Positions 23,762 to 63,449 of a DNA stretch of 64,000 nucleotides are shown in pieces. Source of the DNA: Naegleria gruberi (Eukaryota); the NCBI GenBank assembly GCA_000004985.1, contig GG738874.1. One strand, given 5' to 3'. The notes below the pieces were generated by a model that ran no database searches, was not told the DNA's origin, and worked only from the letters and a program-made list of their open reading frames with translations. Position 1 is the first letter of the stretch. Each line of letters begins with the position of its first letter. Both the position numbers and the translations under genes were made by a program.

Positions 23762-23824
23762 TATCTTTGCCTGANNNNNNNNNNNNNNNNNNNNNNNNNN
23801 NNNNNNNNNNNNNNNNNNNNNNNN

Positions 23825-31076: not shown

Positions 31077-31425
31077 TTTTGTGCCTTTTTTTCTTCTTGT
31101 CGATTCACTCTACTTGTGCATAAGAGAAGAATGTTTGATGGATGGGAAGTAATTTTGGAAGGGCAAGGGCAGAAAGTATGTTGTTTGATGCTAAGAAGTG
31201 ATCTCCGCATTTTGATTTTGTTGGAGTAAATTTAATTGGCTGATTATTTTTTGTTAGTATTCTTTTTGTCTTCCATTTACGAGAAGATCTTCACGAAAGA
31301 TTATTTATCTGATATTAAAGATAGCATTGTGATGAACAGATGAAAGCAACACATTTTTATTTTTTTTAAATTATGAATTGTTTATTCTTGTAACGGTAAC
31401 TTTTACTGCCCGCCACGTTTAAAAA
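31077..31425. promoter_or_regulatory. Divergent (bidirectional) promoter region between the NHL/EGF gene (minus) and the AP-endonuclease gene (plus).
   Basis: Head-to-head real ATGs lie 349 nt apart. The GC-rich motif CTGCCCGCCACG sits 15 nt upstream of the APE ATG in an otherwise AT-rich spacer. Confidence 0.4.
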
Positions 31426-32538
31426 ATGAAAAGAAAGCAAGAAACAAAAAACACCAAGAAATTATCTTCATCATCCAATGAAGGACCAACAAAAAAGTTG
31501 AAGCAATCCAACCTTCTCTCCCTATTCAAGGCACCTTCATCACCACCAGCCTCATCGCAATCCTCTACTGATACTGACTCATTGACAATAGTAGAGGAGA
31601 GTAAAACCTTCTTGGGCACGAATAATAGCTATGAATTGAACAAGCAATTTAAATTCATCAGCTGGAATGTGAATGGAATATCTGCCGTCTTTAGGAAGGA
31701 ACCCAATTATTTGAAAATGTTGGTAGAGAAGGAAGAACCTACTTGTCTTTGTTTGCAAGAGACTAAGCTTTCTGAAGATGTAAAATTATCGGAAATGGCA
31801 CAATATAAATTCAAGAATTATATTGGACACTTTAACACTTCTAGGGCAAGAAAAGGATACTCTGGTACTGCTTGTTTTGTTCTAAAGCATGGTCCAAAAG
31901 TATTGAATGTCAAGTTTGGTATTGGTAAGGATAAGCATGATTTGGAGGGAAGAACTATTACTGTTGAATATGAAGACTTTTATTTGGTCAAGTAAGTTAA
32001 TATTTACACATGTGTAATCTCATGCCTTATTATTGAATGAATTGATTCAAAATGATAATCATTTTGTTGACATAATAATAGTACTTATTGTCCCAATTCT
32101 GGACAAAATCTCGATCGATTGGAATATAGAACAAAGGAATGGGATGTGGATCTACTCAAATACTTTGAAAAATTGGAAAAGAAAAAGCCAATCATTTGGG
32201 GTGGTGATCTTAATGTTGCCATTTCAGAGATGGATATTCATGATCCTCTTACATTATCCAAAAGTCCTGGTTTTACATTGGAAGAACGGCAATCTTCTCC
32301 TCTCGTAACAAAGGCCTCACCTCCTTTTATTGATTCTTTCAGATATAAAAATCCATATAAGAAACAATACACATACTATGGTTACATTAATGACATGAGA
32401 TTACAAAAGAAAGGATGGAGAATTGATTATTTTGTTTGTAGTAATTCTCTAAAAGACAAGATTGTAAATTCTTACATTCTTGAGGAATACTTTGGCAGTG
32501 ACCATCTACCAATTGGTTTAATCATTAATAAGGAGTAG
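31426..32538 (+). CDS. AP endonuclease, exonuclease III / APE1 family. Two exons, about 31426..31991 and 32082..32538, with a 90-nt phase-2 intron (GTAAGT...AATAATAG).
   Basis: Exon 1 carries ISWNVNGI, LCLQETK, GYSGTA and EGR. The spliced junction gives [26 protein letters not shown], which matches human APE1 [25 protein letters not shown]. Exon 2 carries IIWGGDLNVA, GFT.EER, GWRIDYF and GSDHLPI. Confidence 0.85.
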
Positions 32539-35868: not shown

Positions 35869-37875
35869 TTAGATATAATCCAAATCTGAATATTGTGAAC
35901 TAGTCAAAATGTTGACATCCGTGAAATGATTATTCTCCAATTTGTAAAGTAATCTCCTCCCCATCAAATTTTCAAACTTTTTATCCAAATTCCAATTCAC
36001 AAATGATTCTCTCACATTAAATAACATTGAATTCATTACCTGATTGACATCAAATTCATCCAAAGTATTAATGGCATGGAAAGTGATTGAAGATTCGTAT
36101 TCTGCTTCACTTTCTCCATAGTAATGTGAATGATAGCTGATTGAGTATCGATTTTGGATTTGTTTGAATCGTTCGAGGATGTAATTGAAAACTTGTTTTG
36201 GGTTTTTACGATTTCCATTGAAATCTGAAAAGTATTGAGAAAGTGCATTGGATGCTTCACCTTTGGAAACCTTTCGAATGAAGGAATCGACCTTTGTGAA
36301 GAGAACAATCTTTCGAATAGATGATTCGCCAAGTTCCTTCTTGGAAAACACTTGTTCGAAATAGGTTAAACTATCTAGCAATCTATTACCTGGTTTGGTT
36401 TCTGATTTGGAAGGTGAAATTAAATCTTCAAAACTTAACATGTCAATATCCGAAAGTGAAACTGTGAATATAATACATTTCAAATTTTGTTTTTCCAAAT
36501 ATGGAAGATAGAGAGCTCGTTTTTCTTTCCATCCAAAAGTTTCCAATAACAATAGCTTTCTAGTCACCAATTCTCTATTTTCCAAAGTTGGTTTTGTAAT
36601 ATCCTTCACTGGCATACTTTCCAAAGATAGAATTTTAGCCCTCACAATATCTTGTTTGGTCAACTCGGTAATTTTCTTCAATTTTTCAACTCTGCCATCA
36701 TTTAAAAAGTATTCAATATTCTCTCCCAATAGTGGAATTGGAGTTTTCCTCGAATTTCTCTCTCTATACGATTTTTGGACGAAAGGATGTTTCCACAATT
36801 GATCCATCACTTTGAAAAATTCCTTCTGCTTCCATAATCGTCTTAGAATTTGTTGAGATGATGAAACTGAGTTGTTATCTGATGAATTAACTGTCATTGA
36901 AGAACTTCCATTATTCGAATTTTGGCTTGTTTGAGGATTTAATGAGAAAATATTCGAAGGAGATTGGTTTCCATTCGGTGATGTCTTTCCATTCGTAGAA
37001 TTCACATTCGTATTCATTGAACTATTCGATAAATAATTAATTCTTGGAGAAACTGACTCTGGATGAATCATATTTTGAAATTGTTGAATTAAATCTGAAA
37101 ATTGTTGAGTAAATTCTGGTGAAGAATTTTGAATTTCCTCAAAATTGACTTCATGTTGTGAATGTACAAGGATTTTTAAACAGTAAATGCAATAGAGAAG
37201 TATTGAATCTCTATAGAATTTCAATTCTTCAGTTTTGTAATTGTAATCTCTCAAAATTTCCATCAAAGTTGCTAAAATAGGAAACTGTCAGAATTCAAAA
37301 TTATATTGACACTTACTTTTACCGCTATCTACACCTCCAAGAATGAGAACTAATTTACAATCTTGTAATCTTTTCAAATGTTCTTGATGTGAAATGCCAC
37401 TAATCAATTTTGAATAAATATTGAACTGGGTAGCTCTTGGAGTTTTCATTGCAGAACTTGAACTTCCAATATTTAATAATGAAGTTGATAAAGATTTACT
37501 CTTCCTGTCAGAATTGATGACTGACAGTTGTTCGACATTTGTTAGATTGAGTGTTGGCACTTTCGACACTTCGGAAGATTTTGTATTTTTCAAAGCATCA
37601 AAAACAGGATCTTCTGTTTTGACATCCGAAGTATTATTTGATGTTATCATGGATGTCAAAATAAATCTGCCAACTGACTGGCTTCTTTGATGTTTGGCAG
37701 GTTTTAATCCTTCCCTTCCGTTCTGTTGTTGTAAATTTGCAAGATTTGAATTCGAATTATTTAAAGTAAACGAAGACGAATCTACTTCTATTCGAATCAG
37801 ACTTTCAATTCCATTTGATAGAGAATCTCCAGCATTTTGTTGGTCAAGATCTGGTGATGAAAGTTTTATTCCCAT
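35869..37875 (-). CDS. Heterotrimeric G-protein alpha subunit. Two exons, about 37317..37875 and 35869..37271, with a 45-nt phase-1 intron at 37272..37316.
   Basis: The start is MGIKLSS. On the minus strand the intron reads GTAAGTGTCAATATAATTTTGAATTCTGACAGTTTCCTATTTTAG. Splicing restores the G-alpha P-loop LILGGVDSGKTTLMMEIL. Without splicing, the frame stops 11 codons after SGKSK. Downstream, YLPYLEKQNLKCIIFTVSLSD matches the switch II/G3 region and IVLFTKVDSF matches the NKxD region. Confidence 0.85.
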
Positions 37876-38216
37876 TTTTTTTGATTGTTTTCTACGACCT
37901 GTCAGTGACCTAGTCCACCAATCAAATAATTAATGACATTTCGCAGATTATCAACGTTTATCTCTGCAGTGAACACCATGCAGTTTTCAACACCATCACT
38001 GCAGAGATTATCTGGTACATCAGTAAAAAAACTGTAAATTGTTGCTGATTGAGTAATTTCCTCTTTGAGAATCTTTCAATAATTACAATACCAGAAATTG
38101 TTATAAGCAGGGTTCTCCACGTGGTTATAAGTTGCCAAGGTTGTGGCGATTTTTGCGCATATCCCAAGCGAATATCTTAAAGTTGTGCGGCATTTCATCA
38201 AAAAAAACGACTCTAC

Positions 38217-39834
38217 ATGACTTTTGGCATTTCATTGATGTCTTCAGAGACAATGGCCAATTCAACAATCTATGCTAATCAGACATATTGTGATGAAGCT
38301 CTTTTCAACTTGCCGTCATCAATATATTTGGACTCTATTCCACAAATCATAAACGGAGTTTGTCCTGACACCATTTTCACACCAATTTCATCGAGCTTGG
38401 TCCTATTGAACCATCTTATCATTGTCTTTGTGGGGCTAGCTGGTGTCATTTACAAACGCAACAATGCTCATATAAGATATAGAAGTCCAGTTTATTTGTA
38501 TTGGAGTATGTTTGCTAGTACTCTCCTTGTGGGTATTAGTTGTTTGAGGTTTATGATTGGGAGGACTATCTTTCCATGCCCGTTGCATGCTGTTACCTTC
38601 TTTATATTTCCACAAGTTTTAATGATGCCGTCCATTCTGAAATGTTTTAGAGTGTTTCTTCTATATAGGATAAATTTGGAAAAAAGTAAAGTTCACAATG
38701 AGGCTAGATTTTCAATTGCTGTTAAAGAAAAAGGCATAGAATTGGAGTCAAAGGAATTATCTGAAGGCTCTCCTGCTGTTGGTACGCCTGAATTGAATAC
38801 CAGTTCATCAAATATCATGTCAATTGCCACCGATGATGACAGATCAAGTGAAGCAGGTGAAGCACTGTCTGAAATTTCCACAACCCAAACTAGAAAAATC
38901 AAAATCCTTGAATTTCTAGCCAGTACCAAATTTGCCACCATCATTTACATATCCTTACTCATTTTCCATCTTTGTTTTTGGTTAATTTTTTCAGGAATTG
39001 ACCAAGCAATTTCCAATTCAGGAAATCCAGGCAAAACCATCGTTCTACAAGTTGGTTTACTAGATTTCACCAAAGGATGTGTCTCCTCATCCAATGCAGT
39101 CCTCCTCGTAGCAGCTCAATGCATCTTTTACTTGATTATTGAAATAATCGTCTTTGTCTTGTTTGCTTTTTTCACAGATCGAGATACTTGGGGAATGAAG
39201 AGAGAAACCTTTGTTCTGATTTCGTTTCAAGTGGTGGCTGCCATTTTATACATTGCTTTGGGGAGTATTGGGATTATTAAGACTCTGGTTGATTATTTTG
39301 TGGCGTATGCTCATGTGATTTTGATTTATGTTGGATTGGAATTGTGTGTGAATGTTGTGGCACCTGTTGGATATGCATTTATGATGGATTGGAAGGAGGG
39401 AAGAGGAGAGGAGATGGATACAGTTGGAGGGTTTTTGCAGGATAAAAAGAATGTTGAAAATTTGTTGGATTTTGCCAGAAGAAGGTAATTATTTTTTAAT
39501 TTTTTAATTTTTTTTTATTTTAATTTCCAAAATTAGTTATTGTCCAGAAAATGTCTTATTTTGGAGAGATGTTCAAAGATTTAAAAAATCCAACAAGAAG
39601 AATAGAAACAAAATGGCCCAAGTCCTCATTAACACCTACATGAAGCAAACTTCTCCTGTCGAATTGAATTTACCAAGTGAATTGAGTAAATTAATTCCAA
39701 ATTTAGAAATTCAAGCTAATGAAACAACTCCAGTCGATGCAAATATCTTCCAACAATTTGAATTGCATTGCTTGAATGATTTGTGTGATATTTTCACAAG
39801 ATTTAAGGCCTCCACCAAATATGGAAATAATTAA
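38217..39834 (+). CDS. Seven-TM receptor fused to a C-terminal RGS domain. Exons about 38217..39484 and 39537..39834, with a 52-nt phase-2 intron (GTAATT...AAATTAG).
   Basis: Seven hydrophobic helices are separated by a Ser-rich loop. The spliced junction LLDFARR|SYCPENVLFWRDVQRFKK reconstitutes the RGS core (SEENL.FW...FK pattern). The RGS C-terminal helices are AQVLINTYMKQTSPVELNL and IFQQFELHCLNDLCDIFTRF. Confidence 0.8.
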
Positions 39835-45175: not shown

Positions 45176-46798
45176 TTAAAAATCGTATTTCTTCTTTTTG
45201 AGTTTATCAACCTTAATCTTATCAATCTTCATTTCACGTTGGAAAGCAAGAGATTGTTTGAATCTGTGGTGAGTATCCATCATTACCAAACAAGTTTCCT
45301 TTTCCAAAATATTGAACATATCTTCTGGTAGTGTTTCAATTTGCTTATCGTTGTAACTGTCAAGCTTATCCTTGACAGCATCAGTAAGAACATGAGAAAT
45401 ATTGACAGCCATATCACCAGTAACTTCCAAAAATTCAGTAAATATCTCAAAAGCAACTTCATACTTTTTGGCTTCAACTTCAGCATATTCTTTTTCAAGT
45501 GGGGAAAGCTTCTTTTTTCCAGAGTGGGCTGAATCACCTGAAACACCTGAAATTTCACTAGAAACATCACTTTGTACATTGCTTTCTCCGAATAATCTCA
45601 TTTGCAAGTCAATGGAACGTTCGCACAATGATCTATAATAATGAATCTTTTCCAAGAGTAAAAAGTTTTCAGTTGACTTTTCCTTTTCACAATGTATCTT
45701 AAATAATGTTCTCAATCCATCATCCTCCATAGTGTCCATCAACATGACAGCATTGGCACGACGAATCTTCTCCAAATATAATGAGTCACGGTTAATGGCA
45801 TAAGTAAAGACAAATACAATGATTGGCAAAATGACGAATAGTGAAACGGCAATGACAATCAATTGAACCAAAGTAATGGCCAGAACATTCTTGTCTTTGG
45901 TACTTTCTTTCTCTTGTACAAAGGTGACCAATTTATCGAGACCTTCTTGGAAAGTTGTCTTGATTGTATTGTATGATGTTGAACTCAGTCTTGTTTTGGC
46001 ATCTTCTGGTTGTGTTCTGATAATTAGTAATATCTGAGAATTTGCTCCATCCCAATTATTTGAAGCCTCAACAGTTGTAGAGTTAAACATGGTCTGAATG
46101 GAAGCATCATCCACGTTCTTTAAAATTGTTTGTAAGGTTTTTTTCAGTGTTTGAGTAGAGTTTTTATACTCTTCCTGAACTAGTAATCTCTGATCTTCTG
46201 ATGAGTAACCAGTATAAGTATACTTTAAAACTAGAGCATTGGAGCTTTCAAAGATGGAAGTAACTTTACCAACAGCAATTAAAATATCGGTTGACTTGGT
46301 TGTGGTAGCAACGAATGCAGCAACAGCTACGCCAGCCAATACTAACAAACCAATAACTGTCACCATCATACCTAGTAAACAAGCCAATTTCATTGAAGTT
46401 AGCTCAACAACACCACAACATGTTCGCAAAGTAATTTTACTCTGACTGAAAGAACTTCCAGACCTTCCACTTTCGCTATGATTCACAAAACCAACTTGAG
46501 ATTGAGCAGCTGTTGTTTGTTTTGCTGTTGTAGTTGGTGATGCAATAGTGACCTTCTTTGAGTTATTTGTTGATGGAAGTGCTGTTATATTCATTGTGTT
46601 ATTTGGTTTGTTGTTGTCGAGTGGAGTTGTTGATTGTGGAAATGATGGTGAAGAGGACGTTGTTGGATTATTTGCTATTGTTGTTGTTGTATTGTTATTA
46701 TTGTTGGAGAGATAGGAAGTGGCATTATTGGCTTCGTTTGAGGCAGGAGCTAGTGAAGGTGAGCCTGTTGTGGAGGCTGTTGATGGTGGTGTATTCAT
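45176..46798 (-). CDS. Two-TM RGS-domain protein of 540 aa with a single exon. Paralog of 9691..11277.
   Basis: The RGS core LEKIRRANAVMLMDTMEDDGLRTLFKIHCEKEKSTENFLLLEKIHYYRSLCE is near-identical to the paralog. TM1 is KLACLLGMMVTVIGLLVLAGVAVAAFV and TM2 is LAITLVQLIVIAVSLFVILPIIVFVF. The N-terminus is Asn/Thr/Ser-rich. Confidence 0.8.
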   Translation of the reverse strand: MNTPPSTASTTGSPSLAPASNEANNATSYLSNNNNNTTTTIANNPTTSSSPSFPQSTTPLDNNKPNNTMNITALPSTNNSKKVTIASPTTTAKQTTAAQSQVGFVNHSESGRSGSSFSQSKITLRTCCGVVELTSMKLACLLGMMVTVIGLLVLAGVAVAAFVATTTKSTDILIAVGKVTSIFESSNALVLKYTYTGYSSEDQRLLVQEEYKNSTQTLKKTLQTILKNVDDASIQTMFNSTTVEASNNWDGANSQILLIIRTQPEDAKTRLSSTSYNTIKTTFQEGLDKLVTFVQEKESTKDKNVLAITLVQLIVIAVSLFVILPIIVFVFTYAINRDSLYLEKIRRANAVMLMDTMEDDGLRTLFKIHCEKEKSTENFLLLEKIHYYRSLCERSIDLQMRLFGESNVQSDVSSEISGVSGDSAHSGKKKLSPLEKEYAEVEAKKYEVAFEIFTEFLEVTGDMAVNISHVLTDAVKDKLDSYNDKQIETLPEDMFNILEKETCLVMMDTHHRFKQSLAFQREMKIDKIKVDKLKKKKYDF

Positions 46799-47949
46799 TT
46801 CTTATTATTCTTATTGAAATTGCTACCTAAAGTTTATGTTGTTATTCGAATGTGGTGTGATTTGATTGTTTTTGAAAACTTCATAACATGAATTGATTGC
46901 AAGGAGATAAATCAATTTAAGGAAATAGATTTATGAATCATGCATTCAATATCAATACTTCTTCATAACAACTTACCAAATACTCTTTGCAATTCTTCTT
47001 CTTCTCCAAGTAGTTTACCGTGAATGTTGTTGTTTGAGAATGCAAAAATTTACGGAATGATTTTGGAGGTAATCTTTGAGTTGTTTTTTTGTGTGATGTT
47101 GAAATGGTGTTGTCTTGCAAGGTCGGGTTTTTTGCTTTAATATTCTTGCTGATCGCGCTTTACTGAATCGCCTTCCTTCTTGGTGAAATGATTGCTGGAC
47201 ATATTGTGAAAGGAGGTATTTATATGGAAATTCATGCGAAAGTAAGCAAAGCCAAAGGTGGAAGTGTTTAAGGATAGATAATTAGTGTTGTTTTTAATTT
47301 TATTTGAATATTTTGAAGATATTAGATGATGAAGAAAGTGGATGAAACTATTGATTTCAGCAAAGAAAATGTAATACAACATTAGGACGGTTATTAGAAA
47401 AGACAATTTAGAAAGAAGAGACAAAGCGGATAGATTCCGATTTTAGGCAACCAATTAAATTATGGAAGCAGACGAAAATAAATGGAATTGTTGCATCTGC
47501 CTTATCAACTTTATCCTTCCAAGAGAAATAAAATAAATTTAGAAAGTTGAAATGCAACGTTCTGTGAACAGTTCCACCTTTTGGCTTTCTGTCAAATAGT
47601 GTAATGTTACTGTAAATCATGTTAAATTGAAAATTCATTTACAACATACTACAGTGAAATGGGTATTTAATTATTAGGTTTGAGTTCACTTAATTTGTTT
47701 GTCGATTTGTCTTGATGTCAGTTAAGAATTTGGAAATGTCAATAGTTCGCTGTTTGTTGCCTTGTTTGTAAAATCCATTTTCTTAAATGAGTAAAATACC
47801 CTAGTAAGAGTAGTGAAGAGCTATTTGTGATTCAATCATCAAAGTACGGTATTTTCATTACCATCTTCCTTTTATCTAATCACGAATCAAACAACTTGCT
47901 CAAATCCACATAAAAGTAAAATAATAAATTTATAATAATAAATAATAAT

Positions 47950-48881
47950 CAAGGGGGGACATAGTTATTTTTAGACAAGCTACTTGCACGGTAAAGTTTT
48001 GAAGCAACCATAGGGAGAAAGGCTTTGCTTTCTTTCTTGATATATACAATAAATGGTGAAATGAAGATTTCAGAATAGACAGTCAACTCAATGGTATATC
48101 TAAAACTTTTTTCTGTTTTTTTGGTATTATTGTAGTTATTGTGTAATATTAGTGTAAAGTTCCCATAACATTTAAAGTACCATACCATTGATATTTTCTC
48201 GCCACCATTTGAGAGATAGGTGAATAGTATCTATATAATTATACTCTAAAGAGCCGAGTCGTCAGAATCAGTATTGATCTTGGTGTATCCCACAGGAGGT
48301 AAGTAGTAGGAAATACTTCGTCAAAAAATGACTAGCGAAATTTTGTTGTAAAGAGATGAGTATTATGTCTATATATAAACAACCTCAGCCAATAAAAATT
48401 CATGGATTCGTTATAATAGATATATATTATCAGTGGTAAAATATTTGTCTGTCAATATGACTTATTAGAGTAATGTAAACTTGATGAAAGTTGTTCGTCA
48501 TTTTATCATTATTTTATAATAAGGAAAAAAATTAGTTGGTAAACTATACTTATTTTTGGAGTAAATAATTGATTTCAATCAACTATTATTTCTATAACCG
48601 TTTCTGCTAATGTCTATAAACGACTGGAAAAATATGAGAACAAACAAGCATAAATTTATTTATTAAATTAGCACAGGATAATAGAATAGTGAAAATCCAG
48701 TTGTTTATTCAATTTTGATGGAAACTGATTTTCTTTTCAAAAAATTGTCATCTTATGCATTCATTGAAGCTCAAAAATAAATTTTTTTATTTATTTTAAT
48801 TGAAAATAATGAGTTTCTTGTACCATAATATTTTTTAAAAAATGTATGACTTCAACAAATTCTTCACTATGTCCCCCCTTG
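47950..48881. mobile_element. Candidate non-autonomous hAT-like MITE of 932 bp. It has 15-bp terminal inverted repeats, CAAGGGGGGACATAG and its reverse complement CTATGTCCCCCCTTG. An 8-bp direct target-site duplication, ATAATAAT, flanks it.
   Basis: The TIR starts with CAAGG. This fits the hAT YARNG terminal motif, and an 8-bp TSD is the hAT hallmark. There is no ORF inside. The flanks are (AAT)n-like, so the TSD could be fortuitous. Confidence 0.5.
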
Positions 48882-49971
48882 ATAATAATAATGTGGTGTA
48901 AAATCTTAGAATATTCGTAAAAAAATTATGCAAATAGCCCTTTTCAGCTCTTCTGATTTTCGGAGTGGTTTTGCAGTGGGAAAGCACCAAACTTTCCCAT
49001 CATCTCAACATCATCTAAATAGTAGTAATAGTAGTAATTTTTATTGGTGGATTATGTATCATCATGAAGTTGGAATTTATTTTTCATGATGGAAAATCTC
49101 AAGTTGGTGTTCCATCATCCGATCATTCCACCAACCATCATCATTATTGTTTTCCATCAATATTAATAATAGTATTTGTGGAAATTAATTTTTAGTATTG
49201 TAATTTTGGTGAAATGTCAAAATTTTCACTAAATTCATCATCACTGCTTGATCTACTGGACAAGTTGGAAAACTGTCAATGTAGCATTGTTCGGAATGGT
49301 CAATAGTAGGTAGGAGAACTTTCTCTGATCAATTTTGGTCAAGTTATGATAGGGATAGGTACATGTGAATTTTGAAAAAGTACATGGACCATAACTCAAC
49401 ATGTACTTCACCAACTTGAATCATGTCTTTTAGTACTACTATTTAAATAGATAATAAACATCATATTTATTATCAGATTTTCATCATGTTGTCAATTTAC
49501 CAAGTTCCGATTTTTGATGCTACCAGAGTTGATTCATAGCCCAATTACAAATCAAACAACAATAAAACAACAATTCATAATGTTTATTATGTTATTAAAT
49601 GTATAATTTCAAGTCTTGTAGCATAATTTGTGAAAATCATTGATATCTGATATTTTCATGTTTTTATTGTTTTTCTCATGATGTGGAAATTGACTTCTCA
49701 CTGAAACATCACGAATAGCATGTCATTCATCCATTCTCTACCAGATAATTATCTTTTACTGTAATTTTCACTATTGGATATTACTTTTAATATTTGTGAT
49801 ACTTTACTATTTTATTCAATGAATAAGGGATGAGAAACATTCATTAGAAGAAGAAAGATTCCCAGTAATATATTCTCTCTCTGTACAATTTATTATTTCA
49901 ATATCTGTCAAATTAATTGAGATAGAAGGTATTTCATCAGCTCATATCAAAACAGCTGGAGTTGAACTACC

Positions 49972-50747
49972 TTGAAAAAGAAGCCTGGAAATTCCAGGAA
50001 AGAATTTGGAACAAAAATCTTTCCTAGAAAATCCAGAGAAAAATCTTTCCGGCTACACTCACCACAAGTTTGCTCATCACATGGTTCTTGTGTTGCTCCC
50101 AATAATTGCTCTTGCCTTAATGGATATTATGGAAGTGAGTGTGAACATTATAATTGTTATGGTATTTATTATAATTCATCACAAGTGTGCTCATCTCGTG
50201 GTGTTTGTGTTTCTCCTGAGAAATGTAAATGTTCAGATGGATATTATGGTAATAATTGTGAACAGTTCAATTGTTCTGGCGTTCATTTCAATTCATCACA
50301 AGTTTGTTCTTCACATGGCACATGTATTCTTCCAGAAAAGTGTATTTGTTCTAGCGCTGGCTGGAACTAATTGTGAGATCTATAATTGTTCTGGAATTGT
50401 AAACACCTCACCAGAAGTTTGCTCTTCACATGGTATTTGTGCATCTCCTTTTTAATTGTAAATGTTCCAATGGATATTATGGAACCATTTGTGACTTGTT
50501 TGATTGTTTCGGTGTTGAACATTCGAATAGCAGTATTGTCTGTTCAGGAAATGGTATATGCCAAACTCCAGATTTTTGTAAATGCAACAATGATCGCCAT
50601 GGAATCCAATGTGAGGCTGTAGGAAAATGTGTCACTGTTAATAATTCAACATTGTGTGCTAAATCCTCAACTCACTCCTTCGATATTCATGTAATTTTCA
50701 TGGTTGTCTTGTTGGTAGCATTGTTTTTAACTCATAACAGTTTGTAA
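49972..50747 (+). pseudogene. Truncated and decayed gene fragment. It encodes ~6 tenascin-type EGF repeats, a TM helix and a short tail (NHL/EGF surface-protein family). It lacks a start and a signal peptide. Two +1 frame breaks occur at homopolymer runs near 50365 and 50455.
   Basis: The EGF units (CSCLNGYYGSECEHYNC, CKCSDGYYGNNCEQFNC, CKCSNGYYGTICDLFDC) are spread over three frames. The frame is restored by removing 1 nt at each break. The fragment begins mid-repeat and ends VIFMVVLLVALFLTHNSL. Confidence 0.6.
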
Positions 50748-50950: not shown

Positions 50951-53152
50951 ATGTCTTCACTTGCTACCAGGGCACAACTGTATAATCCTGTTGGTATTTT
51001 TGTTTCATCAAATAATGAAGTTTATATTGCTGATTATAGTAATCATAGAATTAGAAAAATATTAAAAAATGGAAATATTGCAACAATCGCTGGAAAGGGA
51101 ACTTGTGGCTTCAGTGGTGATAATGGTCCTGCAACAAATGCACAAATTTATTATCCTTCTAGTGTTTTTGTTTCATCAAATAATGAGGTTTATATTGCTG
51201 ATCAAAGTAATCACAGAATTAGAAAAATATTAGAAAATGGAAATATTGTAACAATTGCAGGGAATGGAATTGGTGGCTTCAGCGGTGATAATGGTCCTGC
51301 AACAAATGCACAAATTTATTATCCTTATAGTGTTTTTGTTTCATCAAACAATGTAGTTTATATTGTTGATTATGGTAATAATAGAGTTAGAAAAATACTA
51401 GGGAATGGAAATATTGTAACAATTGCAGGAAATGGAACTTCTGGATTCAGTGGTGACAATGGTCCTGCAACAAATGCACAACTAAATAATCCTGTTGGTG
51501 TTTTTGTTTCATCAAATAATGAAGTTTATATTGCTGATCAAAGTAATCACAGAATTAGAAAAATATTAGAAAATGGAAATATTGTAACAATTGCAGGGAA
51601 TGGAACTGGTGGATTCGGTGGTGACAATGGTCCTGCAACAAATGCACAACTATATATCCCTTATAGTGTGTTTGTTTCAAACAATGAAGTTTATATTGTG
51701 GATTATGGTAATAATAGAATTAGAAAAATATTAGGGAATGGAAATATTGTAACAATTGCAGGGAATGGAACTTCTGGATTCAGTGGTGATAATGGTCCTG
51801 CAACAAATGCACAACTGAATAGGCCTTCTAGTGTGTTTGTTTCAAACAATGAAGTTTATATTGCTGATCTTAATAACCATAAAATTAGAAAAATATTAGA
51901 AAATGGAAATATTATAACAATTGCAGGAAATGGAACTAAGGGATTCAGTGGTGATTCACCATTTGATATTAGAATGTATCCTCATATTGGAAATAACTTA
52001 TTTACTGGAAGTAGTATCTTGTATTCTAAAATACAAGTTCATAATTTGTGCAAACATTCAAGAGATCAATTATTTGGATTGCAAATTTATGGATTCATTC
52101 CATTCATTGAGAAAATTTCACCACAGTTTAGTAATATTTTGAAGAATGAAAAAATACTTTGTTTGATGAGTTCATCACAACAAGAAATTATTCAAAAATT
52201 AATTGACTCTTTGATATATGATAAAGATAAGGTAATGTTTAGCAAAGAAGAAACGTTGGATGTTTTATTCATTTTGGGTTTATTCAAGAATGGTGAATTT
52301 ATTGATTTGAAAAGATCATTGACAAGTGGGTTTGTGAACTCACTCACATTAGAAAATCTTCTTTTGAAATGGGAAACAATTGAGATTTTACTGAAAATTT
52401 GCAAGGAAGAATTCAATGTTCAAAATTACATTCTTGATCATTTGAATAACTATTGTATTGAATATGCTGTTGTTCAAATGAAAACCAAAGAAGGAAACGC
52501 CTTATTATCTACCCTTCCAATAATTATGAGAAATGGTGCTACCATATTTCCAAAATTGATCATTACTCAACCAACTGCAATTAATATTGAGGAAACAATT
52601 GAGATTAAACCACAAACAATTGAATCATTATATAATGACATGAAAACAAGTGATGTGAAAATCAAAATGGGACAAAACAAATACCTATATTGTCACAAAA
52701 CTGTATTGAGTTTTTCAAGTACATTCTTTAATGCACTTTTTGACAGCGGATCTTGTTTCAGTGATTTAAGTGATGACGGAGTATTCACACTAAACGAACC
52801 AGAAGATTTGGAATTATTGGAAATTGTGATTAAATATTGTTATGGAATTTCAATTGACAAAATTGATCCTGTTAAAAGTATGGGATTACTTGATATGGCA
52901 ATGAAACATGAAATTCCATATCTGGTTGATTATTGCAAGAATAGCTTTAATCTATCTATTGATAATTACTTTAATATGCTTGAAGTATGTGAAAATTATT
53001 TTGATTTACAACTATTTGAGCCATGTTTCAGAGAATTTGTCAAATTTAGCATTGCCAACAGAAAACAACTTTTCAGTGATCGCGATAGAATTTCCAAATT
53101 ACCTGAAAAAGTGTTGCAAGAAATGGTCTTTTCGTTTTCTCAGGACTTTTGA
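50951..53152 (+). CDS. NHL-repeat (6 units) plus BTB/POZ domain protein of 733 aa. It has no signal peptide, starts mid-NHL-unit, and may be a subtelomeric chimeric gene.
   Basis: The NHL units are near-identical 55-aa repeats (NGNIVTIAGNGTSGFSGDNGPATNAQLNNPVGVFVSSNNEVYIADQSNHRIRKILE). The C-terminal BTB spans KYLYCHKTVLSFSSTFFNALFDSG...LELLEIVIKYCYGISI...MGLLDMAMKHEIPYLVDYC. Confidence 0.6.
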   Translation: MSSLATRAQLYNPVGIFVSSNNEVYIADYSNHRIRKILKNGNIATIAGKGTCGFSGDNGPATNAQIYYPSSVFVSSNNEVYIADQSNHRIRKILENGNIVTIAGNGIGGFSGDNGPATNAQIYYPYSVFVSSNNVVYIVDYGNNRVRKILGNGNIVTIAGNGTSGFSGDNGPATNAQLNNPVGVFVSSNNEVYIADQSNHRIRKILENGNIVTIAGNGTGGFGGDNGPATNAQLYIPYSVFVSNNEVYIVDYGNNRIRKILGNGNIVTIAGNGTSGFSGDNGPATNAQLNRPSSVFVSNNEVYIADLNNHKIRKILENGNIITIAGNGTKGFSGDSPFDIRMYPHIGNNLFTGSSILYSKIQVHNLCKHSRDQLFGLQIYGFIPFIEKISPQFSNILKNEKILCLMSSSQQEIIQKLIDSLIYDKDKVMFSKEETLDVLFILGLFKNGEFIDLKRSLTSGFVNSLTLENLLLKWETIEILLKICKEEFNVQNYILDHLNNYCIEYAVVQMKTKEGNALLSTLPIIMRNGATIFPKLIITQPTAINIEETIEIKPQTIESLYNDMKTSDVKIKMGQNKYLYCHKTVLSFSSTFFNALFDSGSCFSDLSDDGVFTLNEPEDLELLEIVIKYCYGISIDKIDPVKSMGLLDMAMKHEIPYLVDYCKNSFNLSIDNYFNMLEVCENYFDLQLFEPCFREFVKFSIANRKQLFSDRDRISKLPEKVLQEMVFSFSQDF
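51000..51950 (+). repeat. DNA-level tandem repeat with a ~165-bp period and ~6 copies. It encodes the NHL units of the 50951 gene.
   Basis: Blocks such as aatggaaatattgtaacaattgcagggaatggaa...ggtgataatggtcctgcaacaaatgcacaa recur almost verbatim. Confidence 0.75.
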
Positions 53153-56862: not shown

Positions 56863-57458
56863 ATTTTGTAAAATCAACATGTACCTTCCTGTGGCGCCAT
56901 TTCTAATTATTATGATATGAAATTGAATTCTACATCATTATAGATCATCTATATCATGTTGGTAAAGTTTCAAAAGTGGTTCTTTTTCAAGATTTTATCC
57001 TTTTCATATCTAGTTGACCATGTGTGATTGAGGGAAGAAATCTATAAATATGAAAGTCAAAATAAATTTGATATTCGATGTTTACTCATTCAAATGGAAC
57101 ATTTTCATATCAGGGTTCAATATGTTTTGATGAGAAACTCAAAAGTTATTGTTGACCTCTTTTACCTCACAACTTCCCTTTTCACTTGATACTTTTATAC
57201 CTACAGACTTGAACTTTTGAAATTTGATATGAAAGTGATTATAGATGTTGTTAATGATGATATATACTATATAATCTCATTAAAGGATTTTGAAATTATC
57301 ATTCTTCCTATGGTTTCATTTTAACAATTTTAATCTGACACTATTTATAAAGTTAATATTTTATAAATTGAAAAACTAAATATAACACGTTGTTCTACTC
57401 ATCATTTACAATCGAGGTGATATAAAATTTAATGATATTTGAATAAGTTTATAATTTN
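56863..57458. repeat. Subtelomeric tandem element, copy 1 (~600 bp). It runs into the N-gap.
   Basis: About 90% identical over its length to 62080..62668. Confidence 0.85.
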
Positions 57459-60400
57459 NNNNNNNNNNNNNNNNNNNNNNNNNNNNNNNNNNNNNNNNNN
57501 NNNNNNNNNNNNNNNNNNNNNNNNNNNNNNNNNNNNNNNNNNNNNNNNNNNNNNNNNNNNNNNNNNNNNNNNNNNNNNNNNNNNNNNNNNNNNNNNNNNN
57601 NNNNNNNNNNNNNNNNNNNNNNNNNNNNNNNNNNNNNNNNNNNNNNNNNNNNNNNNNNNNNNNNNNNNNNNNNNNNNNNNNNNNNNNNNNNNNNNNNNNN
57701 NNNNNNNNNNNNNNNNNNNNNNNNNNNNNNNNNNNNNNNNNNNNNNNNNNNNNNNNNNNNNNNNNNNNNNNNNNNNNNNNNNNNNNNNNNNNNNNNNNNN
57801 NNNNNNNNNNNNNNNNNNNNNNNNNNNNNNNNNNNNNNNNNNNNNNNNNNNNNNNNNNNNNNNNNNNNNNNNNNNNNNNNNNNNNNNNNNNNNNNNNNNN
57901 NNNNNNNNNNNNNNNNNNNNNNNNNNNNNNNNNNNNNNNNNNNNNNNNNNNNNNNNNNNNNNNNNNNNNNNNNNNNNNNNNNNNNNNNNNNNNNNNNNNN
58001 NNNNNNNNNNNNNNNNNNNNNNNNNNNNNNNNNNNNNNNNNNNNNNNNNNNNNNNNNNNNNNNNNNNNNNNNNNNNNNNNNNNNNNNNNNNNNNNNNNNN
58101 NNNNNNNNNNNNNNNNNNNNNNNNNNNNNNNNNNNNNNNNNNNNNNNNNNNNNNNNNNNNNNNNNNNNNNNNNNNNNNNNNNNNNNNNNNNNNNNNNNNN
58201 NNNNNNNNNNNNNNNNNNNNNNNNNNNNNNNNNNNNNNNNNNNNNNNNNNNNNNNNNNNNNNNNNNNNNNNNNNNNNNNNNNNNNNNNNNNNNNNNNNNN
58301 NNNNNNNNNNNNNNNNNNNNNNNNNNNNNNNNNNNNNNNNNNNNNNNNNNNNNNNNNNNNNNNNNNNNNNNNNNNNNNNNNNNNNNNNNNNNNNNNNNNN
58401 NNNNNNNNNNNNNNNNNNNNNNNNNNNNNNNNNNNNNNNNNNNNNNNNNNNNNNNNNNNNNNNNNNNNNNNNNNNNNNNNNNNNNNNNNNNNNNNNNNNN
58501 NNNNNNNNNNNNNNNNNNNNNNNNNNNNNNNNNNNNNNNNNNNNNNNNNNNNNNNNNNNNNNNNNNNNNNNNNNNNNNNNNNNNNNNNNNNNNNNNNNNN
58601 NNNNNNNNNNNNNNNNNNNNNNNNNNNNNNNNNNNNNNNNNNNNNNNNNNNNNNNNNNNNNNNNNNNNNNNNNNNNNNNNNNNNNNNNNNNNNNNNNNNN
58701 NNNNNNNNNNNNNNNNNNNNNNNNNNNNNNNNNNNNNNNNNNNNNNNNNNNNNNNNNNNNNNNNNNNNNNNNNNNNNNNNNNNNNNNNNNNNNNNNNNNN
58801 NNNNNNNNNNNNNNNNNNNNNNNNNNNNNNNNNNNNNNNNNNNNNNNNNNNNNNNNNNNNNNNNNNNNNNNNNNNNNNNNNNNNNNNNNNNNNNNNNNNN
58901 NNNNNNNNNNNNNNNNNNNNNNNNNNNNNNNNNNNNNNNNNNNNNNNNNNNNNNNNNNNNNNNNNNNNNNNNNNNNNNNNNNNNNNNNNNNNNNNNNNNN
59001 NNNNNNNNNNNNNNNNNNNNNNNNNNNNNNNNNNNNNNNNNNNNNNNNNNNNNNNNNNNNNNNNNNNNNNNNNNNNNNNNNNNNNNNNNNNNNNNNNNNN
59101 NNNNNNNNNNNNNNNNNNNNNNNNNNNNNNNNNNNNNNNNNNNNNNNNNNNNNNNNNNNNNNNNNNNNNNNNNNNNNNNNNNNNNNNNNNNNNNNNNNNN
59201 NNNNNNNNNNNNNNNNNNNNNNNNNNNNNNNNNNNNNNNNNNNNNNNNNNNNNNNNNNNNNNNNNNNNNNNNNNNNNNNNNNNNNNNNNNNNNNNNNNNN
59301 NNNNNNNNNNNNNNNNNNNNNNNNNNNNNNNNNNNNNNNNNNNNNNNNNNNNNNNNNNNNNNNNNNNNNNNNNNNNNNNNNNNNNNNNNNNNNNNNNNNN
59401 NNNNNNNNNNNNNNNNNNNNNNNNNNNNNNNNNNNNNNNNNNNNNNNNNNNNNNNNNNNNNNNNNNNNNNNNNNNNNNNNNNNNNNNNNNNNNNNNNNNN
59501 NNNNNNNNNNNNNNNNNNNNNNNNNNNNNNNNNNNNNNNNNNNNNNNNNNNNNNNNNNNNNNNNNNNNNNNNNNNNNNNNNNNNNNNNNNNNNNNNNNNN
59601 NNNNNNNNNNNNNNNNNNNNNNNNNNNNNNNNNNNNNNNNNNNNNNNNNNNNNNNNNNNNNNNNNNNNNNNNNNNNNNNNNNNNNNNNNNNNNNNNNNNN
59701 NNNNNNNNNNNNNNNNNNNNNNNNNNNNNNNNNNNNNNNNNNNNNNNNNNNNNNNNNNNNNNNNNNNNNNNNNNNNNNNNNNNNNNNNNNNNNNNNNNNN
59801 NNNNNNNNNNNNNNNNNNNNNNNNNNNNNNNNNNNNNNNNNNNNNNNNNNNNNNNNNNNNNNNNNNNNNNNNNNNNNNNNNNNNNNNNNNNNNNNNNNNN
59901 NNNNNNNNNNNNNNNNNNNNNNNNNNNNNNNNNNNNNNNNNNNNNNNNNNNNNNNNNNNNNNNNNNNNNNNNNNNNNNNNNNNNNNNNNNNNNNNNNNNN
60001 NNNNNNNNNNNNNNNNNNNNNNNNNNNNNNNNNNNNNNNNNNNNNNNNNNNNNNNNNNNNNNNNNNNNNNNNNNNNNNNNNNNNNNNNNNNNNNNNNNNN
60101 NNNNNNNNNNNNNNNNNNNNNNNNNNNNNNNNNNNNNNNNNNNNNNNNNNNNNNNNNNNNNNNNNNNNNNNNNNNNNNNNNNNNNNNNNNNNNNNNNNNN
60201 NNNNNNNNNNNNNNNNNNNNNNNNNNNNNNNNNNNNNNNNNNNNNNNNNNNNNNNNNNNNNNNNNNNNNNNNNNNNNNNNNNNNNNNNNNNNNNNNNNNN
60301 NNNNNNNNNNNNNNNNNNNNNNNNNNNNNNNNNNNNNNNNNNNNNNNNNNNNNNNNNNNNNNNNNNNNNNNNNNNNNNNNNNNNNNNNNNNNNNNNNNNN

Positions 60401-61945
60401 NNNNNNNNNNNNNNNNNNNNNNNNNNNNNNNNNNNNNNNNNNNNNNNNNNNNNNNNNNNNNNNNNNNNNNNNNNNNNNNNNNNNNNNNNNNNNNNNNNNN
60501 NNNNNNNNNNNNNNNNNNNNNNNNNNNNNNNNNNNNNNNNNNNNNNNNNNNNNNNNNNNNNNNNNNNNNNNNNNNNNNNNNNNNNNNNNNNNNNNNNNNN
60601 NNNNNNNNNNNNNNNNNNNNNNNNNNNNNNNNNNNNNNNNNNNNNNNNNNNNNNNNNNNNNNNNNNNNNNNNNNNNNNNNNNNNNNNNNNNNNNNNNNNN
60701 NNNNNNNNNNNNNNNNNNNNNNNNNNNNNNNNNNNNNNNNNNNNNNNNNNNNNNNNNNNNNNNNNNNNNNNNNNNNNNNNNNNNNNNNNNNNNNNNNNNN
60801 NNNNNNNNNNNNNNNNNNNNNNNNNNNNNNNNNNNNNNNNNNNNNNNNNNNNNNNNNNNNNNNNNNNNNNNNNNNNNNNNNNNNNNNNNNNNNNNNNNNN
60901 NNNNNNNNNNNNNNNNNNNNNNNNNNNNNNNNNNNNNNNNNNNNNNNNNNNNNNNNNNNNNNNNNNNNNNNNNNNNNNNNNNNNNNNNNNNNNNNNNNNN
61001 NNNNNNNNNNNNNNNNNNNNNNNNNNNNNNNNNNNNNNNNNNNNNNNNNNNNNNNNNNNNNNNNNNNNNNNNNNNNNNNNNNNNNNNNNNNNNNNNNNNN
61101 NNNNNNNNNNNNNNNNNNNNNNNNNNNNNNNNNNNNNNNNNNNNNNNNNNNNNNNNNNNNNNNNNNNNNNNNNNNNNNNNNNNNNNNNNNNNNNNNNNNN
61201 NNNNNNNNNNNNNNNNNNNNNNNNNNNNNNNNNNNNNNNNNNNNNNNNNNNNNNNNNNNNNNNNNNNNNNNNNNNNNNNNNNNNNNNNNNNNNNNNNNNN
61301 NNNNNNNNNNNNNNNNNNNNNNNNNNNNNNNNNNNNNNNNNNNNNNNNNNNNNNNNNNNNNNNNNNNNNNNNNNNNNNNNNNNNNNNNNNNNNNNNNNNN
61401 NNNNNNNNNNNNNNNNNNNNNNNNNNNNNNNNNNNNNNNNNNNNNNNNNNNNNNNNNNNNNNNNNNNNNNNNNNNNNNNNNNNNNNNNNNNNNNNNNNNN
61501 NNNNNNNNNNNNNNNNNNNNNNNNNNNNNNNNNNNNNNNNNNNNNNNNNNNNNNNNNNNNNNNNNNNNNNNNNNNNNNNNNNNNNNNNNNNNNNNNNNNN
61601 NNNNNNNNNNNNNNNNNNNNNNNNNNNNNNNNNNNNNNNNNNNNNNNNNNNNNNNNNNNNNNNNNNNNNNNNNNNNNNNNNNNNNNNNNNNNNNNNNNNN
61701 NNNNNNNNNNNNNNNNNNNNNNNNNNNNNNNNNNNNNNNNNNNNNNNNNNNNNNNNNNNNNNNNNNNNNNNNNNNNNNNNNNNNNNNNNNNNNNNNNNNN
61801 NNNNNNNNNNNNNNNNNNNNNNNNNNNNNNNNNNNNNNNNNNNNNNNNNNNNNNNNNNNNNNNNNNNNNNNNNNNNNNNNNNNNNNNNNNNNNNNNNNNN
61901 NNNNNNNNNNNNNNNNNNNNNNNNNNNNNNNNNNNNNNNNNNNNN
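57459..61945. other. Assembly gap (N-run). It probably spans further copies of the subtelomeric tandem element.
   Basis: 4487 N, flanked on both sides by copies of the same ~600-bp element. Confidence 1.
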
Positions 61946-62079
61946 TGAAAGTGAAAATAAACTTGATTTTCTATCTCTACTCATCGAATGGAGCATTTTC
62001 ATGTATATATTGTTGGTTGAAGTGATGTATTTGATAGAGTTGGTCTGACTTGTCTTTCCTTTAAGTCAACCATAAAATA

Positions 62080-62668
62080 TCAACATTTACCTTCTCATGA
62101 TACCATTTCTGATTTTTAGGACATGAAATTGAATTCTATATCATTATAGATCATGTACATCATTTTGGTAAAGTTTTAATAGGTGGTCCTTTTTCAAGAT
62201 TTCATCCTTTTCATCCCTAGTTGACCATGATGGTTGAGGGAAGAAATCTTTAAATATGAAAGTTAAAATAAATTTGATATTCGATGTTTACTCATCAAAT
62301 GGAACATTTTCATATCAGGTTTCAATATGTTTTGATGAGAAACTCAAAAGTTATAGTTGACCTATTTTACCTCACAACTTCCCTTTTCACTCTATACTTT
62401 TATACCTACAGAGATGAACTTTTGAAATTTTATATGAAAGTGATTATGAATGTTGTTAACGATGATATATACTATATAATCTCATTAAAGGATTTTTAAA
62501 TTATCATTCTTCATATGGTTTCATTTATGAAATTTTAATCTGACATTATTTACAAAGTTAATATTTTATAAATTGAAAAACTAAATATACTACGTTGTTC
62601 TACTCATCATTTCCAATCGAATGATATAAAATATTATGATATTTGAATAAGTTTATAATTTTGGGCTA
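62080..62668. repeat. Subtelomeric tandem element, copy 2. It is preceded at 61946..62080 by a partial copy and is followed directly by telomere repeats.
   Basis: Aligns to 56863..57458. The piece at 61946-62040 aligns to an internal part of the element (57040-57135), which indicates a head-to-tail array. Confidence 0.85.
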
Positions 62669-63076
62669 GGGTTTGAACGTTGGGTTTAGAAGAATTCTGG
62701 GGGTTGGGTTTGGGTTTGGGTTTGGGTTTGGGTTTGGGTTTGGGTTTGGGTTTGGGTTTGGGTTTGGGTTTGGGTTTGGGTTTGGGTTTGGGTTTGGGTT
62801 TGGGTTTGGGTTTGGGTTTGGGTTTGGGTTTGGGTTTGGGTTTGGGTTTGGGTTTGGGTAGGGTTTGGGTTTGGGTTTGGGTTTGGGTTTGGGTTTGGGT
62901 TTGGGTTTGGGTTTGGGTTTGGTTGGGTTTGGGTTTGGGTTTGGGTTTGGGTTTGGGTTTGGGTTTGGGTTTGGGTTTGGGTTTGGGTTTGGGTTTGGGT
63001 TTGGGTTTGGGTTTGGGTTGGGTTTGGGTTTGGGTTTGGGTTTGGGTTTGGGTTTGGGTTTGGGTTTGGGTTTGGG
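62669..63076 (+). repeat. Telomere-type hexamer array (GGGTTT)n of ~65 units. It begins with degenerate units (gggctagggtttgaacgttgggtttagaagaattctggggg). A few variant units occur (GGGTAGGGTTT, GGTTGGGTTT). An N-run at 63077-63126 truncates it.
   Basis: Direct reading. The G-rich strand runs 5'->3' toward the window end. Confidence 0.9.
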
Positions 63077-63449
63077 NNNNNNNNNNNNNNNNNNNNNNNN
63101 NNNNNNNNNNNNNNNNNNNNNNNNNNTTGAATCAGGTTGATTTGCATGCAATATGAATAAGTAACATTATCAAGAGTGATTATTCACCAATTAAATAATC
63201 AATATTCAATAATCGGTTTGATTTCAATCAATAGCTTGATCAACAAGCTATGGATTAATATTCCAGTAATTAACGGCAGTCTATTTTTAAATTTAATCAA
63301 AGACCATATATAGTATCTTGACTTTTATGATCTGGAAACTATCTAGACGTGTTCTATTAGACGGTGGGCAGTGCCATGTATTCGTTGTTCCAACCAAATT
63401 TTTTTAGAGTCGAGCCAATTTTGTTAATATTTTAATATTATTTATTCTT

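What the first reader, a model, noticed from the sequence alone, without database searches (positions are those of the whole stretch)
47942..48889. Candidate hAT-type MITE with perfect 15-bp TIRs and an 8-bp target-site duplication
CAAGGGGGGACATAG at 47950-47964 and its exact reverse complement at 48867-48881 bracket 932 bp of non-coding AT-rich DNA. The identical octamer ATAATAAT lies immediately outside each end. The TIR begins with CAAGG, which fits the hAT terminal consensus YARNG. An 8-bp TSD is diagnostic of hAT transposition. A G6 run inside an AT-rich genome makes chance matching of the TIRs unlikely.
Basis: seen in the sequence. Interest (0 to 1): 0.55.

Follow-up and report, generated by a model that had tools for sequence, protein, structure and literature searches.

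The report
Transposon-like insertion in a Naegleria microsatellite
A 932-bp non-coding stretch of the Naegleria gruberi genome, with perfect inverted ends and duplicated flanks, is almost certainly an ordinary cut-and-paste transposon relic; its family (hAT is the best guess) cannot be fixed from this one copy.

Summary
CAAGGGGGGACATAG lies at 47950-47964, its reverse complement at 48867-48881, and ATAATAAT abuts both ends. The perfect inverted repeat is really 16 bp, or 18 bp with a palindromic AT.

It is not chance. Only 2 of 240 simulated windows reach the information content of the 16-mer. Of 1031 perfect inverted repeats of at least 10 bp in the window, only this one and one 10-bp pair have flanking direct repeats of at least 6 bp.

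The window is Naegleria gruberi. The element sits in a 3.2-kb intergenic region between an RGS gene and an EGF/NHL gene, and it splits a degenerate (AAT)n tract. Nothing inside it matches a protein family, tRNA or Rfam family.

The best reading is a young non-autonomous class II transposon insertion. The hAT assignment is plausible but unproven. Because of the (AAT)n context, the duplication could be any length from 1 to 8 bp depending on where the termini lie. An 8-bp duplication is not unique to hAT.

No second copy, autonomous partner or empty site could be found, because the N. gruberi genome was not searchable with these tools. The "MITE" label is unsupported: 932 bp, copy number unknown. 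This is an ordinary finding of low interest.

The parts
47920..47949 (.). Degenerate (AAT)n microsatellite forming the left flank. It is the presumed target tract that the element interrupts.
   Evidence: Tandem Repeats Finder: period 3, 10 copies, 72% matches; sequence.
47942..47949 (.). Left copy of the flanking direct repeat ATAATAAT. This is the candidate target-site duplication; 8 bp is the maximum, and the true length is undetermined.
   Evidence: (phase table).
47950..47965 (+). Left terminal inverted repeat CAAGGGGGGACATAGT: 16 bp perfect, or 18 bp if the palindromic AT at 47948-47949 is included.
   Evidence: (pair I1).
47966..48865 (.). Internal 900 bp. The 932-bp element as a whole is 28% G+C. 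Non-coding: the longest stop-to-stop frame is 93 aa and runs through the left TIR. No Pfam remnant, no tRNA or Rfam gene, and no subterminal repeats shared by the two ends.
48866..48881 (-). Right terminal inverted repeat, the exact reverse complement of the left TIR.
48882..48889 (.). Right copy of the flanking direct repeat ATAATAAT. It is followed by AAT and then unique sequence (GTGGTG...).

Best explanation
This is a single, evolutionarily young insertion of a non-autonomous class II (TIR, cut-and-paste) DNA transposon in Naegleria gruberi. It lies about 1.15 kb upstream of an RGS-domain gene (45176-46798, minus strand) and about 1.1 kb upstream of an EGF-repeat ORF (49972-50370, plus strand).

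Inferred mechanism: a DDE-type transposase encoded elsewhere in the genome recognised the 16-bp termini CAAGGGGGGACATAGT, excised the element, and joined its 3' ends to staggered positions in an (AAT)n tract. Gap repair then duplicated the target. The element encodes nothing itself, so it depends on that enzyme in trans.

The most likely superfamily is hAT, given the 16-bp TIR, the CAAGG terminus, a duplication of up to 8 bp, and T at position 2 and A at position 7 of the duplicated octamer. In that case excision would go through hairpins on the flanking DNA and integration across 8 bp.

Shown: TIRs, flanking direct repeat, non-coding content, interrupted microsatellite, and statistical non-randomness. 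Inferred: mobility, trans-mobilisation and superfamily. I put the probability of a transposon insertion at about 0.8 and of hAT specifically at about 0.45.
For: - Perfect 16/18-bp inverted repeat. It is the longest and the only G+C-rich one in the window. 2 of 240 simulated windows reach the 16-mer's information content and 0 of 240 the 18-mer's.
- An 8-bp identical flank directly abuts both arms. Only 1 other of 1031 inverted repeats has a direct repeat of at least 6 bp. ATAATAAT occurs only 11 times in 64 kb.
- Removing the element and one repeat copy restores one continuous imperfect (AAT)n array.
- Similarity between the two ends stops exactly at the 16-bp TIR, as expected for transposon termini rather than a long palindrome.
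- The inside has no coding remnant or RNA gene.
- The nearest assembly gaps are at 24969 and 54304, so a scaffolding artefact is unlikely.
- hAT-compatible features: Hermes has 17-bp TIRs and an 8-bp TSD with target preference nTnnnnAn (PMC10368747). ATAATAAT has T at position 2 and A at position 7. CAAGG fits the YARNG terminus (established knowledge of hAT).
- DNA transposons do exist in N. gruberi, for example MuDRF (PMC3164196).
Against: - No second copy of the TIR or of the internal sequence exists in the 64-kb window.
- No related sequence was found in metagenome, viral or prokaryote collections; those hits are single and unrelated beyond the 16-mer.
- No autonomous partner and no empty site were found. 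The N. gruberi genome could not be searched, so this is absence of a test, not a negative result.
- The duplication length is ambiguous: 1 to 8 bp depending on the termini.
- The flanking octamer is near-palindromic, so the TSD reading rests on 2 discriminating bases.
- No subterminal repeat motifs of the kind hAT transposases bind were detected.
- Classified TEs make up only about 0.28% of the N. gruberi genome (bioRxiv 10.64898/2026.06.24.734286), which lowers the prior.
Confidence: 0.75

Rival explanations
1. It is a non-autonomous TIR transposon of a superfamily other than hAT. Candidates are another family with an 8-bp TSD (P-like, Zisupton/KDZ, an 8-bp MULE), or a PIF/Harbinger-type element with termini TCAAGG...CCTTGA inserted at TAA inside a (TAA)n tract. 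A family making 5-, 6- or 7-bp duplications is also possible.
For: The phase table shows the same sequence is compatible with TSDs of 2/5/8, 3/6 (TAA, TAATAA) and 1/4/7 bp, because the AT next to the TIR is palindromic and the flanks have a 3-bp period. Zisupton makes 8-bp TSDs and IS3EU 6-bp TSDs (PMC12730594). CAAGG also fits the CANRG terminus that I recall for P-type elements (memory only, not tested). Mutator-type elements are documented in N. gruberi (PMC3164196).
Against: - PIF/Harbinger and Merlin termini normally begin with G/GG, and Merlin TIRs are at least 24 bp (PMC8101967).
- Transib and CACTA terminal motifs (CACWATG, CACTA) are absent.
- hAT is the most widespread eukaryotic family that combines short CA-type TIRs with 8-bp TSDs.
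Confidence: 0.3
2. Chance: a fortuitous 16-bp inverted repeat whose arms happen to abut two separate AAT microsatellites. No mobile element is involved.
For: AT-rich 14-16-bp perfect inverted repeats do occur by chance in this window. My back-of-envelope estimate, from base frequencies only, is that roughly ten inverted repeats of this information content would arise by chance across a 41-Mb genome. AAT-type tracts are common in intergenic DNA, and no second copy was seen.
Against: Only 2 of 240 simulated windows reach the TIR's information content. The chance of a flanking direct repeat of at least 6 bp is about 1e-3. The joint probability is about 1e-5 per window, or about 0.01 for the whole genome. 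The repeat arms end exactly where the microsatellite resumes.
Confidence: 0.05
3. It is a 24-bp imperfect inverted repeat (ATAATAATCAAGGGGGGACATAGT, 92% complementary) with no target-site duplication. This could be the product of a local inverted duplication, or the pair of recombination sites of an invertible segment.
For: (pair I1) reports 24-nt arms at 92% complementarity. The direct-repeat and inverted-repeat readings of the 8 flanking bases differ at only 2 positions.
Against: Both discriminating positions match the direct-repeat reading, which is 8/8 identical. Identity is perfect for 18 bp and then fails exactly where a TSD would begin. The left flank is part of a longer AAT array that is not mirrored on the right. 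Site-specific invertible segments of this kind are not known in Naegleria, and no recombinase gene lies nearby.
Confidence: 0.05

Closest known systems
Non-autonomous hAT elements (Ds-like derivatives of Ac/hobo/Hermes-type transposons)
   Same: Short perfect TIRs (16 bp here, 17 bp in Hermes). A 5'-CA...TG-3' terminus that fits YARNG. A possible 8-bp duplication with T at position 2 and A at position 7 (nTnnnnAn, PMC10368747). No coding capacity. Internal sequence unrelated between the two ends.
   Different: The 8-bp TSD cannot be distinguished from shorter ones in this (AAT)n context. No subterminal transposase-binding repeats were detected. No hAT transposase remnant lies inside. No autonomous partner or sister copies were available.
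MITEs (miniature inverted-repeat transposable elements)
   Same: TIR plus TSD, A+T-rich, non-coding, inserted in intergenic DNA near genes.
   Different: At 932 bp it is larger than typical MITEs (usually well under 800 bp). Copy number is unknown, with one copy in 64 kb. No family homogeneity could be shown.
PIF/Harbinger-derived Tourist-like elements (TAA/TTA target)
   Same: If the termini are TCAAGG...CCTTGA, the duplication is TAA inside a (TAA)n tract, which is the preferred Harbinger target.
   Different: The termini do not begin with the usual G-rich Harbinger/Tourist motif. This reading requires the extra 5 bp of flank identity to be a by-product of the microsatellite.
MuDRF (Mutator-type) elements reported in N. 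gruberi (PMC3164196)
   Same: Same host. A TIR-bounded class II element.

Membership tests
hAT superfamily | 8-bp target-site duplication (5-7 bp in the hAT5/6/7 lineages) | tested here: inconclusive
   ATAATAAT flanks both ends. However, 2/5/8, 3/6 and 1/4/7 bp are all compatible because of the (AAT)n context and the palindromic AT. hAT5/6/7 and non-hAT families with 8-bp TSDs exist (PMC12730594).
hAT superfamily | Short TIRs (about 10-25 bp) with a 5'-YARNG terminus | tested here: met
   16-bp perfect TIR starting with CAAGG. The consensus comes from established knowledge. Hermes has 17-bp TIRs (PMC10368747).
hAT superfamily | Target preference nTnnnnAn (Ac/Hermes type) | tested here: met
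   ATAATAAT has T at position 2 and A at position 7 (PMC10368747). This is weak evidence in A+T-rich DNA.
hAT superfamily | Mobilised by a BED zinc-finger / DDE / hAT-dimerisation transposase encoded by an autonomous copy with the same TIRs | not testable with these tools
   The N. gruberi genome is not indexed. No transposase remnant lies inside the element, and no transposase-like ORF appears in the window.
hAT superfamily | Subterminal short repeats that bind the transposase | tested here: not met
   6- to 8-mers shared between the two 200-bp ends are no more frequent than in shuffles. The motifs are family-specific and can be short, so this is only weak evidence against.
Any transposon family | Several dispersed copies with the same termini and different flanks, or a polymorphic empty site | not testable with these tools
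   One copy in 64 kb. Metagenome, viral and prokaryote scans gave only single unrelated hits. The flanking genes have no near-identical relatives in other assemblies.
MITE | Small size (typically under about 800 bp) and high copy number | tested here: not met
   Size is 932 bp. Copy number could not be determined.
MITE | Non-coding, with TIRs and a TSD | tested here: met
PIF/Harbinger | 3-bp TWA (TAA/TTA) target-site duplication | tested here: inconclusive
   TAA is possible if the termini are TCAAGG...CCTTGA.
Tc1/mariner | TA target-site duplication | tested here: not met
   No boundary choice gives TA on both sides.
Mutator / MuDRF | 9-bp (8-11 bp) TSD; 9 bp for the N. gruberi MuDRF | tested here: not met
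   9-bp and longer duplications are impossible, and 8 bp is the maximum (PMC3164196).
Merlin | 5'-GG termini, TIRs of at least 24 bp, 8-9-bp TSD | tested here: not met
   The termini begin CA (or TCA/ATCA) and the TIR is 16-18 bp (PMC8101967).

The most novel reading that the evidence does not exclude
The element is a recently inserted member of a still-mobile, so far undescribed hAT-like (or other 8-bp-TSD) transposon family in Naegleria gruberi. In this discoban lineage, classified TEs are only about 0.3% of the genome, and I found no paper describing hAT elements or MITEs. The perfect TIRs and perfect flanking repeat would then mark current or very recent transposase activity that could be used as a genetic tool.
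Probability: 0.3. Interest if true: 0.3.

Novelty: new member of a known kind. Interest (0 to 1): 0.15.

Why it matters
It matters little beyond genome annotation. If a family and an active transposase were confirmed, it would document recent cut-and-paste transposition in a very TE-poor free-living heterolobosean. It might also offer an endogenous transposon for mutagenesis in Naegleria, which lacks good genetic tools. As it stands it is one ordinary TE-like insertion in an intergenic microsatellite. It also illustrates that a target-site duplication read inside a microsatellite cannot be used to assign a superfamily.

Tried and rejected
1. Other copies in the window: pattern search with up to 3 mismatches and blastn of the 932 bp found none.
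2. Copies through protein space: the longest frame (93 aa) searched against 5.8 billion proteins gave no hit, and the exact ORFs are not in the collection.
3. The exact TIR in public collections gave 78 metagenome, 5 viral and 36 prokaryote loci. All are single hits with no second arm at up to 3 mismatches and no similarity beyond the 16-mer, which is the level expected by chance.
4. Fetching the N. gruberi scaffold or a second strain through flanking genes: the NCBI N. gruberi assembly is not indexed. An ENA metagenome contig (L001) carries a protein identical to an N. gruberi paralogue but not this locus. The flanking genes are singleton clusters.
5. Synteny in N. lovaniensis: the best RGS homologue lies in an unrelated neighbourhood.
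6. Coding remnants and RNA genes inside the element: six-frame Pfam, Rfam at gathering and E<=1 thresholds, and ARAGORN found nothing meaningful.
7. Subterminal repeats: none beyond chance.
8. Literature: no paper on hAT elements or MITEs in Naegleria, and the N. gruberi genome paper is not held.
9. Rejected outright: Tc1/mariner, Mutator with 9-bp TSD, Merlin, and CACTA/Transib terminal motifs. An assembly artefact is also rejected, because there are no gaps nearby.
The word-index design would return animal and plant hAT proteins rather than any Naegleria one, and the N. gruberi DNA could not have been fetched anyway.

Full report
**What the window is.** A 540-aa ORF next to the finding (45176-46798, minus strand) is 100% identical to a Naegleria gruberi predicted protein on a 401,612-bp scaffold. 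The 733-aa ORF at 50951-53152 is exactly NAEGRDRAFT_49904. The window is therefore nuclear DNA of the heterolobosean amoeba N. gruberi. It is about 33% G+C and has long, mostly intron-free ORFs.

**Checking the observation.**
- The perfect inverted repeat is 16 bp (CAAGGGGGGACATAGT, 47950-47965 and 48866-48881). Because the adjacent AT is palindromic, it extends to 18 bp.
- ATAATAAT abuts both arms (47942-47949 and 48882-48889).
- The element is 932 bp and 28% G+C.

**Is it more than chance?**
- A census of perfect inverted repeats with 50-5000 bp spacing shows this is the longest in the window and the only G+C-rich one. The runner-up is a 16-mer with 25% G+C.
- In 240 first-order Markov simulations of the window, 2 reached the information content of the 16-mer (34.6 bits) and none that of the 18-mer.
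- Of 1031 perfect inverted repeats of at least 10 bp in the real window, only this one and one 10-bp pair carry a flanking direct repeat of at least 6 bp.
- ATAATAAT occurs 11 times in 64 kb.
- Multiplying these rates, I estimate the joint probability at about 1e-5 per window, or about 0.01 for a 41-Mb genome. The structure is real.

**Anatomy.**
- The left flank is a degenerate (AAT)10 array at 47920-47949. The right flank continues as ATAATAATAAT and then becomes unique sequence. Deleting the element and one repeat copy restores a single imperfect (AAT)n tract, as expected if an element inserted into a microsatellite.
- Similarity between the two ends stops exactly at 16 bp. Shared 6- to 8-mers in the 200-bp subterminal regions are no more frequent than in shuffles.
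- The interior has no long ORF. The longest stop-to-stop frame is 93 aa and reads through the left TIR.
- There is no Pfam match in six frames and no homologue among 5.8 billion proteins.
- There is no tRNA and no Rfam family, either at gathering thresholds or meaningfully at E<=1.
- The nearest assembly gaps are at 24969 and 54304.

**Genomic context.**
- The element sits in the middle of a 3.2-kb intergenic region.
- On one side is the start of an RGS-domain gene, 1.15 kb away on the minus strand.
- On the other side is an EGF-repeat ORF, 1.1 kb away on the plus strand, followed by an NHL/BTB gene.

**The weak point: the target-site duplication.**
- The flanks have a 3-bp period and the AT next to the TIR is palindromic, so the boundaries can be drawn three ways.
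  - Termini CAAGG...CCTTG give a duplication of 2, 5 or 8 bp.
  - Termini TCAAGG...CCTTGA give 3 or 6 bp (TAA or TAATAA).
  - Termini ATCAAGG...CCTTGAT give 1, 4 or 7 bp.
- Only 9 bp or more and a TA duplication are excluded.
- ATAATAAT is nearly its own reverse complement. The tool accordingly also reports 24-nt arms at 92% complementarity. The direct-repeat reading beats the extended inverted-repeat reading at just two positions.
It does not remove the evidence for an insertion, but it removes the evidence for a particular duplication length.

**Superfamily.**
- In favour of hAT:
  - A 16-bp TIR (Hermes has 17 bp).
  - A CAAGG terminus that fits YARNG.
  - A possible 8-bp duplication whose sequence fits the Hermes/Ac target pattern nTnnnnAn (PMC10368747).
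- However, an 8-bp duplication is not diagnostic. Zisupton makes 8 bp, Merlin 8-9 bp, and hAT itself has lineages making 5, 6 and 7 bp (PMC12730594, PMC8101967).
- Rejected here:
  - Tc1/mariner, because no TA duplication is possible.
  - Mutator-type MuDRF, known in N. gruberi with a 9-bp TSD (PMC3164196), because 9 bp is impossible.
  - Merlin, which has GG termini and TIRs of at least 24 bp.
  - CACTA and Transib, whose terminal motifs are absent.
- A PIF/Harbinger-type insertion at TAA remains possible, though the termini are atypical.
- Given that this is a transposon, I put hAT at a little over half.

**Family-level tests that could not be done.** The decisive tests are other copies, an autonomous partner and an empty site. 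All need the N. gruberi genome or a second strain.
- The NCBI N. gruberi assembly is not in the positional index.
- The flanking genes have no near-identical relatives in ENA, JGI or Logan data.
- An ENA metagenome contig with an N. gruberi-identical protein (L001) is a different locus.
- The N. lovaniensis homologue is not syntenic.
- Exact-TIR scans of metagenome, viral and prokaryote collections returned only single, mutually unrelated hits, at the number expected by chance.
- The searchable literature has nothing on hAT elements or MITEs in Naegleria. It gives 5.1% repeats (PMC6125883) and about 0.28% classified TEs (bioRxiv 10.64898/2026.06.24.734286). It also reports that young TEs are methylated (PMC12344493).

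**Verdict.**
- The best explanation is a young, non-autonomous cut-and-paste transposon insertion into an (AAT)n tract, mobilised in trans by a DDE transposase that recognises the 16-bp ends. I put this at about 0.8.
- hAT is the leading superfamily but is unproven, at about 0.45 overall.
- "MITE" is not supported, given the 932-bp size and unknown copy number. "An 8-bp TSD is diagnostic of hAT" is incorrect.
- Remaining alternatives are another superfamily (about 0.3), chance (about 0.05), and an imperfect 24-bp inverted repeat without a TSD (about 0.05).
- This is an ordinary feature of a eukaryotic genome and of low interest. It would become modestly interesting only if it marked a still-active family in this TE-poor protist.

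Noticed in passing
window 62,700-63,076 (ends at the 50-N gap 63077-63126): About 380 bp of near-perfect (GGGTTT)n, which is (AAACCC)n on the other strand. This telomere-like hexamer array lies inside the scaffold, directly next to an assembly gap. It is either an interstitial telomeric repeat or a scaffold join across a chromosome end.
   Followed up: no
window 56870-57457 and 62075-62661: Two 0.59-kb segments that are 91% identical flank the 4.5-kb N gap (57458-61945), just before the telomere-like array. They may be subtelomeric repeats or redundant assembly.
   Followed up: no
window 11687-16918 vs 18539-23774: A 5.3-kb tandem segmental duplication at 90% identity. It carries two large multi-pass membrane proteins that look like nucleotidyl cyclases (ORFs 11656-17136 and 18514-23761, minus strand); the cyclase reading is mine from the sequence and was not checked against Pfam.
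   Followed up: partly
window 23825-24895 vs 30463-31529: A 1.07-kb segment, 99.4% identical to the 5' end of the 1848-aa repeat-rich gene with EGF-like Cys repeats (25530-31076, minus strand), is bounded by 50-N gaps. It looks like redundant or haplotype assembly rather than a real duplication.
   Followed up: no
window 528-2996 and 3466-5193 (+): Two adjacent long ORFs (822 and 575 aa) are extremely rich in Lys/Ser/Thr/Gly 'KKSGKKS'-type repeats and share related C-terminal tails. Function unknown.
   Followed up: no
locus L001 (ENA ERZ929261, contig k127_169372, 8.9 kb): An environmental metagenome assembly contains a contig encoding a 500-aa RGS protein identical to an N. gruberi NEG-M protein. 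A near-identical N. gruberi strain, or contamination, is therefore present in that data set and could serve for empty-site tests if more of it were retrievable.
   Followed up: partly
window 37390-38234: A 10-bp perfect inverted repeat (TGAAATGCCA) with TTGATG on both sides is the only other inverted-repeat-plus-direct-repeat structure in the window. It is at the level expected by chance among 1031 inverted repeats.
   Followed up: yes
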